A DNA stretch of 24,000 nucleotides from Promethearchaeia archaeon (GTDB lineage Archaea > Asgardarchaeota > Lokiarchaeia > Sigyniarchaeales > SOKP01): the NCBI GenBank assembly GCA_046497275.1, contig JAWOFX010000088.1, positions 96,384 to 120,383 on the forward strand, given 5' to 3'. A model generated the notes under the pieces. That model was not told the origin of the DNA, made no database searches, and saw only the letters and a program-made list of their open reading frames with translations. Below, one piece after another: positions 10,617 through 12,464 of the stretch. Every line of letters starts with the position of its first letter. Within the stretch, counting starts at the first letter, position 1. A program made the position numbers and the translations under genes.

Positions 10617-12464
10617 TTGCTAATGTTGAAAAAAAGAAAAATTTACTTGCTAACAACGATTTTCATATCAATCTTTATCATTAGTTCCTTTATTTCAATA
10701 TTTGATTATAATACTTGCTATAATCGTTCAAATTATGAACTACCTAAGACAGCTTCAAGCATAGAAGGAGCTTCCGATATTATAATCTCTAAAATTAATC
10801 GAACTATTGATATAAACGGATTTGGATTAACAAATTTTAAGGATTCTTTAACAATTAAAAATGAATATAATAATCCTGTCTCCTCAATTTTGATAGGAAT
10901 TCCATCTAATATTTATGATGATTTAATATATTATGAAGCAACTGGTATGGGGAAAAATAGTTTATTGGTGGAAGAGACTGATATCATAATGGATAATAAT
11001 AAAATGATGTTAGCAATATATTTTGATTCTCCACTGCTTCCTCAAGAATCTAAATCAATAATTCTCTCCCATTCTTATAAGGAACTTTTACAATACCAAC
11101 CCTCAGGGGAAAATCAAAAGATTTCTTTTACTGGAATAGTTTATCCGCTTTTCCCTTATAAAGCAGAAGGATTAATAAAAACAATTGTTATTCTGCCAAT
11201 TGGATCGACTATCATTAATTCCGATTTTTGGGGGGAGAATAACGATAATTTAATAATTTATGACCTTGAAGAATTAACCCAATCATATTTAGAACCATTT
11301 TTAGAAAACTTAGGGGAAGATAAAATAATTGAGTTATCATTCACCCATCCTTCCAAAACAAGATTGGAAATACAAAAATCCACAAGGGAAATAACAATTT
11401 CCCCGTGGGGAGTGATTAAAGTGAAAGAGAGTATTTTAATTAGGAATCTCGGCTCTATAGATCTTGGAAAATTTAACTTAAAAATACCAAAAGGGGCTCG
11501 CAATGCGAAAACAACCGATCATTTAGGGGAAATTGATGGAACTACTGTGACAGATTTACCGAATAATCCCAAATCCAAACAAATTAATCTGGATCTTACA
11601 AATAATAGGGTGACAATGAATCCAGACTCGAGTTTCAGATTTACATTAACATATCAATTAAATCTGGCAGATTATGTATCTTATAACTGGTTCAAACAAT
11701 CAATACAAATGGATATAATAACAACACGCTGTGATTTTTTAGTAAGAGATCAAATTACAAAAATCATCATAGAAAGCTCTCTTAGCATAACTGATATTTC
11801 TAATCTTCCAAATGAATTTGATGAATCGGTTGCATCTAGCATTCTCGTCTATGAATCAGATTACATTAGCAATATTGAAGAGAATAAAATTTTATTGACT
11901 TATACTCTAGATATTTTTGAAATGTTCCTCAGACCGCTAATAATTTTATTATTAATTGCATCACTGTGTTCGGGGTTTATCCTTTTTATTAAGAAAAGAA
12001 AGCAAATGGGCATTTTACCTATGATTGAAAAAGAAGAGATTCCTATAAAAGAGATCAGAGAGTTTTGTTCACTCTATGAGCAAAAAAATGCCCTTACATT
12101 AGAAATTCGAGAAGCAGAAGAGGAACTTAAGCGACGTAAATTAACTAAAAAACAATATCGTAATCTTGTTGATAAAAATGAATCAAAACTAAAGGATATT
12201 GATGAGGAAATAAAACCTTTTAAGAAAGAATTGATGGAAACAAATCAAACTTTTGAAAGCATGATAAAAAAACTAGATGTTTTAGAAGCGGAACGGCAAA
12301 CGGTCGAGGATGGATTAAAATTATTGGAAAGCAGATATAAAAAAGGGAAACTTCCTTCAAGATCAGCTTATGTAAAATTAACCAATGATTTTTTAAATAG
12401 ACGAAAAAAGATTGACAGAACAATATCTCGTTTTATACAACAATTACGTTCTTATCTCCTTTAA
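10617..12464 (+). CDS. Ribophorin I (OST1)-like protein: extracytoplasmic beta-rich domain, one TM, cytoplasmic coiled-coil tail
   Basis: 615 aa. N-terminal signal/anchor; KSTREITISPWGVIKVKESILIRNLGSIDLGKFN resembles the ribophorin I '[13 protein letters not shown]...L-x-H-x-G-A-x-L-K-G' block; upstream ...SGENQKISFTGIVYPLFPYKAEG also resembles the ribophorin I 'Q-x-x-x-x-x-G-x-x-Y-x-x-S-P-Y' block. Single TM near residue 440-460 and a roughly 150-aa tail ending RYKKGKLPSRSAYVKLTNDFLNRRKKIDRTISRFIQQLRSYLL. The first codon at 10617 is TTG; ATG at 10623 (MLKKRKIYLL) is the more likely start. Confidence 0.82.
   Translation: MLMLKKRKIYLLTTIFISIFIISSFISIFDYNTCYNRSNYELPKTASSIEGASDIIISKINRTIDINGFGLTNFKDSLTIKNEYNNPVSSILIGIPSNIYDDLIYYEATGMGKNSLLVEETDIIMDNNKMMLAIYFDSPLLPQESKSIILSHSYKELLQYQPSGENQKISFTGIVYPLFPYKAEGLIKTIVILPIGSTIINSDFWGENNDNLIIYDLEELTQSYLEPFLENLGEDKIIELSFTHPSKTRLEIQKSTREITISPWGVIKVKESILIRNLGSIDLGKFNLKIPKGARNAKTTDHLGEIDGTTVTDLPNNPKSKQINLDLTNNRVTMNPDSSFRFTLTYQLNLADYVSYNWFKQSIQMDIITTRCDFLVRDQITKIIIESSLSITDISNLPNEFDESVASSILVYESDYISNIEENKILLTYTLDIFEMFLRPLIILLLIASLCSGFILFIKKRKQMGILPMIEKEEIPIKEIREFCSLYEQKNALTLEIREAEEELKRRKLTKKQYRNLVDKNESKLKDIDEEIKPFKKELMETNQTFESMIKKLDVLEAERQTVEDGLKLLESRYKKGKLPSRSAYVKLTNDFLNRRKKIDRTISRFIQQLRSYLL

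What the first reader, a model, noticed from the sequence alone, without database searches (positions are those of the whole stretch)
10617..12464. Asgard ribophorin I (OST1)-like protein with conservation extending into the cytoplasmic coiled-coil tail
The protein has the layout I recall for eukaryotic ribophorin I: signal/anchor, about 400 residues of beta-rich extracytoplasmic sequence, a TM near residue 440-460 and a roughly 150-aa coiled-coil cytoplasmic tail. The central block TREITISPWGVIKVKESILIRNLGSIDLGKF closely resembles the SHWGN block. The C-terminus (YKKGKLPSRSAYVKLTNDFLNRRKKIDRTISRFIQQL) follows the same spacing as the GKLxxxxYxxxxxxxxxxRxxxxxxIxxxL end of eukaryotic RPN1. Ribophorin I homologues have been reported in Asgard genomes, so the family presence is not new. 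Possible homology of the cytosolic tail is less obvious and would bear on how the eukaryotic OST arose.
Basis: partly seen in the sequence, partly recalled or inferred. Interest (0 to 1): 0.82.

Follow-up and report, generated by a model that had tools for sequence, protein, structure and literature searches.

The report
Asgard ribophorin I with ribosome-docking tail

Summary
It is a bona fide Ribophorin_I/OST1 protein. Pfam scores 66.6 bits against a cut-off of 25. A family profile hits human RPN1 at E=7e-10. In the Foldseek search with the AF2 model (pLDDT 84.5), the eight best PDB matches are all human or yeast OST1.

The tail is a compact four-helix bundle, not a coiled coil. It matches PDB 8WHN, the crystal structure of the Prometheoarchaeum MK-D1 OST1 cytoplasmic domain (E=2e-33; TM 0.84-0.91, 1.6 A). 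Carilo et al. (JBC 2024) already showed that this domain has the topology of the human RPN1 bundle and pulls down human ribosomes.

Sequence similarity between the tail and vertebrate RPN1 is weak:
- This protein's own clade shows none.
- HMMER against PDB gives E=0.12, below tropomyosins.
- A pan-Asgard profile gives hhalign E=9e-5 in a consistent register, well above shuffled controls.

Small additions from this work: the tail is the best-conserved region (71% vs 46% identity), and a Sec61beta-OST1-Trm112-AglH/Alg7 gene neighbourhood is conserved. Verdict: correct, but already known.

The parts
10617..12464 (+). OST1/ribophorin I gene (615 aa from TTG; annotated start is the ATG at 10623, 613 aa)
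10617..10706 (+). N-terminal KKRK plus hydrophobic segment (aa 1-30): signal peptide or signal anchor
   Evidence: hydropathy; helix 2-25 followed by a low-confidence linker 26-45; the MK-D1 OST1 signal peptide is cleaved in HeLa cells (PMC11417166)
10752..11912 (+). Extracytoplasmic beta-rich ectodomain (aa 46-432), Ribophorin_I domain
   Evidence: Pfam aa 56-285 matches profile positions 2-234; profile vs human RPN1 residues 88-457; Foldseek 6S7T_E TMt 0.72 and yeast Ost1 TMt 0.66-0.70
11382..11474 (+). SHWGN-like block TREITISPWGVIKVKESILIRNLGSIDLGKF (aa 256-286)
   Evidence: aligned to human [31 protein letters not shown]; R257, P263 and G265 are invariant and W264 nearly invariant in 75 homologues
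11913..12008 (+). Single transmembrane helix (aa 433-464)
   Evidence: aligns with the human RPN1 TM (window aa 459 against human 458)
12045..12452 (+). Cytoplasmic four-helix bundle (aa 477-612), net basic, the most conserved region of the protein
   Evidence: 8WHN E=2e-33; tail-only AF2 model pLDDT 92.1; 8WHN TM 0.84/0.91 at 1.6 A and human 8B6L_O TMq 0.58; 71% vs 46% mean pairwise identity and net charge +8 vs -19
12333..12446 (+). RYKKGKLP loop between helices 3 and 4, plus helix 4 (aa 573-610), the segment that aligns with human 571-607 (AGKLKKDTY...KIDHILDAL)
   Evidence: all give the same register; conserved positions listed
9853..10065 (-). Sec61beta gene, divergently oriented from OST1, conserved neighbour
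   Evidence: Pfam Sec61_beta 2.5e-11; same neighbour in 4 genomes
12517..13143 (+). Trm112p-like protein with a large insert, conserved immediately downstream of OST1
   Evidence: Pfam Trm112p 2.4e-10; conserved position
14573..15937 (+). Glycos_transf_4 protein (the family of AglH/Alg7-type GlcNAc-1-P transferases), conserved downstream neighbour
   Evidence: Pfam PF00953 3.6e-30; conserved position; the functional assignment is inferred from the family

Best explanation
The gene encodes the Asgard orthologue of OST1/ribophorin I. It is a type I membrane protein. An N-terminal signal sequence sends about 390 residues of beta-sandwich ectodomain to the outside of the cell membrane. [quoted passage not shown] By analogy with mammalian OST-A, the ectodomain and TM would associate with the catalytic AglB/STT3 subunit next to the Sec61 channel. 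The bundle would contact the large ribosomal subunit, keeping the glycosyltransferase beside translating ribosomes so that nascent chains are scanned co-translationally. Shown here: family membership, topology, fold, and near-identity of the tail fold to the MK-D1 crystal structure. Shown by others for the MK-D1 orthologue: bundle topology equal to the human one, and binding of human ribosomes. Inferred: complex formation with AglB and Sec61, binding of the organism's own ribosomes, and a contact surface at the membrane-distal tip formed by the two conserved basic loops (R506-x-K-[IL]-x-K-x-x-Y514 and R573-Y-[KR]-x-G-K-[LI]).
For: Pfam Ribophorin_I at 66.6 bits against a cut-off of 25. A profile of 75 homologues hits human RPN1 at E=7e-10 over residues 88-457. 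The AF2 model has pLDDT 84.5, and its top eight PDB fold matches are human and yeast OST1; 8B6L_O scores E=1.3e-33 and aligns over 615 columns including the tail. The tail matches 8WHN at E=2e-33 and TM 0.84/0.91, 1.6 A. Published work shows a four-helix bundle of human topology and a ribosome pull-down (PMC11417166). The human bundle contacts eL28 and rRNA H25 and H19/20 (PMC6761772). The tail is the most conserved region, 71% vs 46% identity, and is basic at +8. A tail-only exhaustive search finds 306 clusters; in every listed full-length hit the match is C-terminal in a 550-680 aa protein. Named members are labelled Promethearchaeota, Hermodarchaeota, Odinarchaeia and Borrarchaeum. The pan-Asgard tail profile against vertebrate tails gives hhalign score 32.6, E=8.6e-5. 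The nulls are 12.0 for the reversed alignment and 14.8+/-2.6, max 23.1, for heptad-block shuffles. Two non-overlapping subsets recover the same register. Sec61beta and an AglH/Alg7-type gene are conserved neighbours.
Against: No STT3/AglB or OST3/6 gene lies in the window, so complex formation is not supported locally. Tail-to-RPN1 sequence similarity is absent for this protein's own clade. It is not significant in a PDB-wide HMMER search, where 6S7O_E scores E=0.12 and ranks about 28th, behind tropomyosin, SH3BP5, Get1 and keratin. In the tail-only fold search human RPN1 scores only E=0.82 and TMq 0.58, and the unrelated Rex1BD bundle superposes better at TMq 0.71-0.74. My eukaryotic tail profile is vertebrate-only with Neff 1.7. 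Ribosome binding was shown only with human ribosomes and only for the MK-D1 orthologue.
Confidence: 0.85

Rival explanations
1. The ectodomain and TM are homologous to RPN1, but the tail is only analogous. On this view a long helical bundle was acquired or remodelled independently in Asgard archaea and in eukaryotes, and the GKL...Y...ID...L resemblance is chance within K/E/L-rich helices.
For: HMMER with the wide tail profile ranks human RPN1 below many coiled-coil proteins at E=0.12. The window's own clade gives no signal. Tail-only Foldseek gives human RPN1 E=0.82, and Rex1BD fits better. Yeast Ost1p lacks the tail entirely, so the tail is evolutionarily dispensable.
Against: The tail occupies the same position directly after a homologous TM, has the same length, and has the same four-helix topology (PMC11417166). 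hhalign at E=8.6e-5 aligns 95 columns with a single one-residue indel (P580), ending at the human C-terminus. That score is about 7 SD above heptad-block shuffles. The register is reproduced by two disjoint Asgard subsets and by HMMER. Both inter-helix turns align: Asgard aGG with human EGS, and RYxxGK with VAGK. The Asgard-conserved positions G577, Y585, I603-D604 and L610 coincide with human G575, Y582, I600-D601 and L607. The MK-D1 tail binds human ribosomes.
Confidence: 0.12
2. The protein is an OST1 homologue that does not work as an OST subunit in this organism. Instead it acts by itself as a ribosome receptor or nascent-chain-binding accessory of the Sec61 translocon, with AglB acting alone as in other archaea.
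For: Archaeal AglB is known from work in other archaea to be active as a single subunit (established knowledge). No AglB gene is adjacent, and agl genes are reported as dispersed in MK-D1 (PMC11284389). The gene's conserved partner is Sec61beta, a translocon subunit, not AglB. The cytosolic tail, not the ectodomain, is the most constrained part.
Against: An AglH/Alg7-type gene, a GT4 gene and a DUF354 gene are conserved in the same neighbourhood, which links it to glycosylation. Asgard genomes encode further OST subunits, namely Ost3, Ost4 and Ost5, and in Heimdallarchaeia Ost2, Wbp1 and Swp1 (PMC10307638). The ectodomain and TM that contact other OST subunits in eukaryotes are retained with the same fold.
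Confidence: 0.15
3. The protein is not a ribophorin at all but another beta-sandwich surface protein, for example one related to the N-terminal domains of M1 aminopeptidases or LTA4 hydrolase.
For: LTA4H and M1 aminopeptidase N-domains appear in the fold search at E about 1e-7 with TM about 0.22.
Against: These matches score some 16-26 orders of magnitude worse than the OST1 chains and cover only about 230 columns. Pfam and profile searches identify Ribophorin_I specifically.
Confidence: 0.01

Closest known systems
OST1 (ribophorin I) of Candidatus Prometheoarchaeum syntrophicum MK-D1, WP_147663064.1; cytoplasmic domain crystal structure PDB 8WHN (Carilo et al., J Biol Chem 2024, PMC11417166)
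   Same: Same architecture and length (607 vs 615 aa). The tail is 44% identical, E=2e-33, and the model superposes at 1.6 A with TM 0.84/0.91. The RYKRGKLPS loop and the C-terminal LR-x-Y-[LI]-[LI] ending are shared.
   Different: It comes from a different, uncultured Promethearchaeati lineage. No experimental data exist for this protein itself.
Human ribophorin I / RPN1 (PDB 6S7O_E, 8B6L_O), subunit of OST-A and OST-B
   Same: [quoted passage not shown] Profile E=7e-10 for the ectodomain plus TM and Foldseek E=1e-33 over the full length. The SHWGN block is shared. The helix 3-4 loop and helix 4 motif are shared in the profile alignment.
   Different: Only about 16-20% identity. Tail similarity is not detectable pairwise. 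There is a one-residue insertion (P580) after GKL. The protein sits in the cell membrane rather than the ER. One human ribosome contact, eL28, is from general knowledge a eukaryote-specific protein, so the archaeal contact must differ at least in part (inference).
Yeast Ost1p (PDB 6EZN_A, 6C26_1, 7OCI_A, 8AGB_E)
   Same: The ectodomain and TM fold match, with TMt 0.66-0.70 and E 1e-23 to 1e-25.
   Different: Yeast Ost1p ends just after the TM (476 aa) and lacks the four-helix bundle. The Asgard protein is therefore more like the metazoan form than the yeast form.

Membership tests
Ribophorin I / OST1 (Pfam PF04597) | Significant match to the family profile above the curated gathering score | tested here: met
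   66.6 bits, E=2.9e-18, against a cut-off of 25; 68.2 bits for aa 1-458. The match covers profile positions 2-234 of 437.
Ribophorin I / OST1 (Pfam PF04597) | Type I topology: N-terminal signal, large extracytoplasmic or lumenal beta-rich domain, single TM near the C-terminal third | tested here: met
   Hydropathy and the AF2 secondary structure. The TM aligns with the human TM. Signal-peptide cleavage itself was not tested.
Ribophorin I / OST1 (Pfam PF04597) | Fold of the lumenal domains matches OST1 in solved OST complexes | tested here: met
   The top eight Foldseek PDB matches are human RPN1 and yeast Ost1, E 1e-33 to 7e-23, with TMt up to 0.72.
Ribophorin I / OST1 (Pfam PF04597) | Conserved R-x-I-x-[IV]-S-x-W-G block (the SHWGN region) | tested here: met
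   TREITISPWG aligns with [10 protein letters not shown]. R257, P263 and G265 are invariant and W264 is at least 90% conserved in 75 homologues.
RPN1-type OST1 with cytosolic ribosome-binding four-helix bundle (metazoan type; absent in yeast) | C-terminal cytosolic four-helix bundle of about 140 aa directly after the TM | tested here: met
   Four helices at 477-612; tail-only model pLDDT 92; 8WHN TM 0.84/0.91; human 8B6L_O TMq 0.58 over 135 columns, although at E=0.82.
RPN1-type OST1 with cytosolic ribosome-binding four-helix bundle (metazoan type; absent in yeast) | Sequence homology of the bundle to eukaryotic RPN1 tails | tested here: inconclusive
   For: hhalign E=8.6e-5, prob 60%; nulls reach at most 23.1 against 32.6; the same register appears in disjoint subsets. 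Against: HMMER vs PDB E=0.12, below coiled-coil decoys; no signal from this clade alone; the eukaryotic profile is vertebrate-only.
RPN1-type OST1 with cytosolic ribosome-binding four-helix bundle (metazoan type; absent in yeast) | The bundle binds the large ribosomal subunit | not testable with these tools
   Shown for the MK-D1 orthologue with human ribosomes (PMC11417166) and for human RPN1 (PMC6761772). Not tested for this protein or with archaeal ribosomes.
Oligosaccharyltransferase complex subunit | Physical assembly with the catalytic STT3/AglB subunit and other OST subunits (OST3/6, Ost4, Ost5) | not testable with these tools
   No STT3 or OST3 gene lies in the 24-kb window, and the rest of the source genome could not be searched. 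Only AF2 models of the MK-D1 complex are published. Context links the gene to Sec61beta and an AglH/Alg7-type gene.

The most novel reading that the evidence does not exclude
The two conserved basic loops at the membrane-distal tip of the bundle, together with the helix-4 pattern G-K-[LI]-x4-Y...[KR]-R...I-D-x-x-[IL]-x-x-L, would be a ribosome-docking determinant inherited with little change from the Asgard ancestor to vertebrate RPN1. OST-A-type co-translational coupling of glycosylation to the ribosome would then predate the ER. The conserved divergent Sec61beta-OST1 gene pair, with an AglH/Alg7-type gene nearby, would mark a co-regulated translocon-glycosylation module in Lokiarchaeia-like Asgards. 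As far as I could check, neither the motif nor the synteny is described in the 2024 structural paper.
Probability: 0.4. Interest if true: 0.45.

Novelty: already known. Interest (0 to 1): 0.2.

Why it matters
[quoted passage not shown] A conserved ribosome-binding tail implies that coupling of N-glycosylation to translating ribosomes existed at the archaeal cell membrane before an ER evolved. That conclusion has already been drawn and partly tested (crystal structure 8WHN and ribosome pull-down, JBC 2024). This window therefore adds one more orthologue and some minor supporting detail: the tail is the most constrained region, there is a weak motif-level link to vertebrate RPN1, and the protein has a conserved Sec61beta neighbour. 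It does not add a new finding.

Tried and rejected
(1) Pfam on aa 1-440 alone returned no family. Re-running aa 1-458 gave Ribophorin_I at 9.4e-19, so I treated the empty result as an unexplained artefact of that call, not as evidence.

(2) A tail profile from 29 close Lokiarchaeia-type homologues found no eukaryotic OST1 in PDB at E<=10. hhalign of that profile against the single human tail gave prob 0.5%.

(3) Pairwise BLASTP of the whole protein against human RPN1 aligns only aa 250-459.

(4) I tried to build a diverse eukaryotic tail profile. The database returned only vertebrate fragments, and the '52-58% identity' entries are fish genes with unspliced introns. The eukaryotic side therefore has Neff 1.7.

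(5) The first null-model script timed out and was re-run with fewer replicates.

(7) I considered the Rex1BD four-helix bundle (8J0H; Pfam DNA_repr_REX1B E=0.21) as a possible relative of the tail. I rejected it as a generic fold resemblance because 8J0H is not among the 60 listed matches of the wide tail profile against PDB.

(8) I checked whether the 721-aa ORF at 3555-5720 (-) could be STT3/AglB. It has no Pfam support.
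Full report
**Observation.** The ORF at 10617-12464 on the + strand exists and encodes 615 aa from a TTG start. The identical protein is deposited as a 613-aa hypothetical protein of a 'Promethearchaeati archaeon' MAG. That annotation starts at the ATG at 10623.

**Family membership.** Pfam Ribophorin_I (PF04597) matches at E=2.9e-18 and 66.6 bits against a curated cut-off of 25, covering aa 56-285. 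The fragment aa 1-458 alone gives 9.4e-19. An empty result for aa 1-440 was not reproduced on the longer fragment.

More than 180 homologues were found, nearly all about 615 aa long. A profile of 75 of them hits human RPN1 (6S7O_E) at E=7e-10. Two collinear stretches cover human residues 88-457, which takes the match up to and through the TM. I verified the human comparator as identical to PDB chain 6S7O_E over residues 1-607. Pairwise BLASTP aligns window aa 250-459 with human 225-458 (E=6e-5) and places TREITISPWGVIKVKE on [16 protein letters not shown].

The AlphaFold2 model is confident (pLDDT 84.5, pTM 0.64). It shows helix 2-25, beta strands from 55 to 431, a TM helix at 433-464 and four tail helices at 477-505, 511-542, 544-575 and 582-612. 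In Foldseek against the PDB the eight best matches are all OST1 chains:
- human RPN1 in the Sec61-TRAP-OST-A translocon: 8B6L_O, E=1.3e-33, 615 aligned columns
- other human RPN1 chains: 6S7O_E, 8PN9_E and 6S7T_E (TMt 0.72)
- yeast Ost1: 7OCI_A, 8AGB_E, 6EZN_A and 6C26_1

The next unrelated folds are the N-domains of LTA4H and M1 aminopeptidases, at E about 1e-7.

**The tail is already a known, solved domain.** The tail alone (aa 469-615) matches PDB 8WHN, 'Ribophorin 1 superfamily protein', at E=2e-33. 8WHN is the 1.95 A crystal structure of the cytoplasmic domain of OST1 from Ca. Prometheoarchaeum syntrophicum MK-D1. Carilo et al. (J Biol Chem 2024, PMC11417166) report three things:
- It pulls down human ribosomes, as the human domain does.
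- The MK-D1 extracellular domains do not pull down ribosomes.

A tail-only AF2 model (pLDDT 92.1) superposes on 8WHN at 1.6 A with TM 0.84/0.91. Eme et al. 2023 (PMC10307638) describe Ost1/ribophorin I as previously reported in Asgard archaea. The human bundle contacts eL28 and rRNA H25 and H19/20, and yeast Ost1p lacks it (PMC6761772). Consistent with that, the yeast PDB chain is 476 aa long and ends just after the TM.

**Is there sequence-level similarity between this tail and eukaryotic tails?** I tested this at several depths.

1. A profile of 29 tails from the window's own clade finds only 8WHN in PDB. No eukaryotic OST1 appears at E<=10. hhalign against the human tail gives prob 0.5%.
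2. An exhaustive HMMER search with that profile over 1.84 billion representatives finds 306 clusters at E<=1e-3. In every listed full-length hit the match is at the C-terminus of a 550-680 aa protein. None is close to human RPN1. Named members are labelled Promethearchaeota, Hermodarchaeota, Odinarchaeia and Borrarchaeum. The tail is therefore widespread among Asgard lineages.
3. A wide profile of 134 of these tails scores the human tail at 17.1 bits, and 0 of 1000 shuffles reach that value (their maximum is 10.5). The alignment puts human AGKLKKDTY...KIDHIL on the archaeal RrGK-i-s-k-e-a-Y...ID-k-l-i.
4. hhalign of the wide archaeal alignment against 12 vertebrate tails gives score 32.6, E=8.6e-5 and prob 60% over 95 columns, with a single one-residue indel, ending at the human C-terminus. 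Controls score far lower: 12.0 for the reversed alignment, a mean of 10.9 and maximum of 18.1 for column shuffles, and 14.8+/-2.6 with a maximum of 23.1 for seven-column block shuffles.
5. I split the archaeal tails into three disjoint sets. The 'mid' set (score 26.5, E=1.3e-3) and the 'far' set (34.0, E=5e-5) recover the same register. The window's own 'close' clade gives nothing (14.8).
6. At database level the picture is sobering. The wide profile (A3) against all PDB sequences does hit 6S7O_E in the same register (profile 60-154 against residues 512-606). But the hit is only E=0.12 and 15.3 bits, ranked about 28th, behind tropomyosins (2.5e-4), SH3BP5, Get1 and keratins.
7. In the tail-only Foldseek search, human 8B6L_O is rank 9 of 350,542 chains with TMq 0.58 over 135 columns, at E=0.82. 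The unrelated Rex1BD bundle superposes better, at TMq 0.71-0.74.

Taken together, a weak, register-consistent signal exists. It rises above composition and heptad-periodicity controls. Neither HMMER nor fold comparison alone separates it from generic long-helix proteins. It is carried by Asgard lineages other than the one in this window.

The pattern GKLx4Yx10Rx6Ix3L matches human RPN1 but not this protein. It matches once a single extra residue (P580) is allowed after GKL. Of the 134 archaeal tails, 37 have the human spacing and 47 have the P insertion.

In the profile register, positions conserved across Asgard tails coincide with human residues as follows:

| Asgard position (window numbering) | Conservation across Asgard tails | Human RPN1 residue |
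|---|---|---|
| G577 | 72% | G575 |
| L579 | 100% hydrophobic | L577 |
| Y585 | 88% | Y582 |
| R595/R596 | R595 69% | K592/R593 |
| I603-D604 | 77% / 83% (the window has S604) | I600-D601 |
| I607 | 96% hydrophobic | L604 |
| L610 | 93% | L607 |

The turn between helices 2 and 3 also aligns: the Asgard consensus aGG falls on human EGS. The motif is plausible and positionally sensible, since GKLP lies in the helix 3-4 loop. It cannot be demonstrated from this sequence alone.

**Additional observations.** Within the family, the tail is the most conserved region. Mean pairwise identity is 71% for the tail, 46% for the ectodomain and 51% for the TM. The tail carries net charge +8 and the ectodomain -19. 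This fits a constrained cytosolic interaction with a nucleic-acid-rich partner. In an up-down-up-down bundle, the helix 1-2 loop and the helix 3-4 loop lie at the same, membrane-distal end. Both carry conserved basic residues (R506, K508, K511, Y514; R573, Y574, K/R575, G577). I infer, without having tested it, that this tip is the ribosome-facing surface.

**Genomic context.** A Sec61beta gene (9853-10065, -) lies directly upstream and is divergently oriented (Pfam 2.5e-11). Nearby genes are:
- a GT4/GT1 glycosyltransferase (7536-8645)
- a radical SAM/SPASM protein
- a MazG protein
- a Trm112p-like protein (12517-13143)
- a DUF354 protein
- a Glycos_transf_4 protein of the AglH/Alg7 type (14573-15937)
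- an M48 peptidase
- a UbiA prenyltransferase

The core order is Sec61beta (-), OST1 (+), Trm112-like, Glycos_transf_4, M48, UbiA. It recurs in three other Asgard genomes whose OST1 is only 44-48% identical and in the source contig. The window contains no STT3/AglB or OST3/6 gene. The 2024 structural paper contains none of the words operon, synteny or neighbor.

**Mechanism.** The best-supported explanation is a type I membrane protein that serves as the non-catalytic OST1 subunit of an AglB/STT3-based oligosaccharyltransferase next to the Sec61 channel. Its basic cytosolic four-helix bundle would dock the large ribosomal subunit so that glycosylation is coupled to translocation, as in mammalian OST-A.
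- Shown here: family, topology, fold, near-identity of the tail to 8WHN, and the conserved context.
- Shown by others for the orthologue: human-like topology and binding of human ribosomes.
- Inferred: assembly with AglB and Sec61, binding of the organism's own ribosomes, and the location of the contact surface.

**Rivals.**
- The tail is convergent rather than homologous (about 0.12).
- The protein acts as a stand-alone translocon or ribosome accessory without AglB (about 0.15).
- It is not a ribophorin at all (refuted).

**Verdict.** The family was reported in Asgard archaea years ago. The tail's homology and ribosome binding were published in 2024 with a crystal structure that this tail matches at E=2e-33. 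Interest 0.2.

Noticed in passing
window 9853-10065 (-) to 15937; L003, L004, L005: The gene order Sec61beta (-) / OST1 (+) / Trm112p-like / Glycos_transf_4 (AglH/Alg7-type) / M48 peptidase / UbiA is conserved in four Asgard genomes whose OST1 is only 44-48% identical. MazG and DUF354 change position and strand between lineages. The 2024 OST1 structural paper does not mention it.
   Followed up: partly
window 12517-13143 (+): A Trm112p-like protein of 207-208 aa. The 40-residue zinc-ribbon profile is split across aa 5-166, which implies an insert of about 120 aa. The gene always lies immediately downstream of OST1, 52 bp away in the window. Its function and any link to OST1 are unknown.
   Followed up: no
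window 12045-12452 (tail, aa 477-612): The tail-only model superposes well on the S. pombe Rex1BD four-helix bundle 8J0H (TMq 0.71-0.74, rmsd 2.1-3.4 A, E 0.3-3.5), and Pfam DNA_repr_REX1B gave a weak hit (E=0.21). 8J0H is not among the 60 listed matches of the wide tail profile against PDB, so this is probably a generic fold resemblance.
   Followed up: partly
window 3555-5720 (-), 22952-23821 (-), 3051-3461 (+): ORFs of 721, 289 and 136 aa have no Pfam family, even at E<=1. The position upstream of the Roadblock/LC7 gene is occupied by an unannotated ORF of variable length (478-721 aa) in related genomes.
   Followed up: partly
window 5798-6169 (-): A Roadblock/LC7 domain protein (Pfam 6.4e-16) is conserved at the same relative position in L004 and L005.
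   Followed up: no
L003 4137-7235 (CP070831.1): In one complete Promethearchaeota genome, a cluster encoding a ubiquitin-like protein, ThiF (E1-like), UQ_con (E2) and a JAB deubiquitinase sits directly upstream of Sec61beta and OST1.
   Followed up: no
literature (PMC11284389 vs PMC11417166): One 2024 paper states that Ost1/ribophorin I is absent from P. syntrophicum MK-D1. Another crystallised the cytoplasmic domain of MK-D1 OST1, WP_147663064.1. The first statement appears to be an annotation miss.
   Followed up: no
window 10617-10623: Start codon ambiguity: the mechanical ORF starts at TTG 10617, whereas the deposited annotation starts at ATG 10623 and gives 613 aa.
   Followed up: partly
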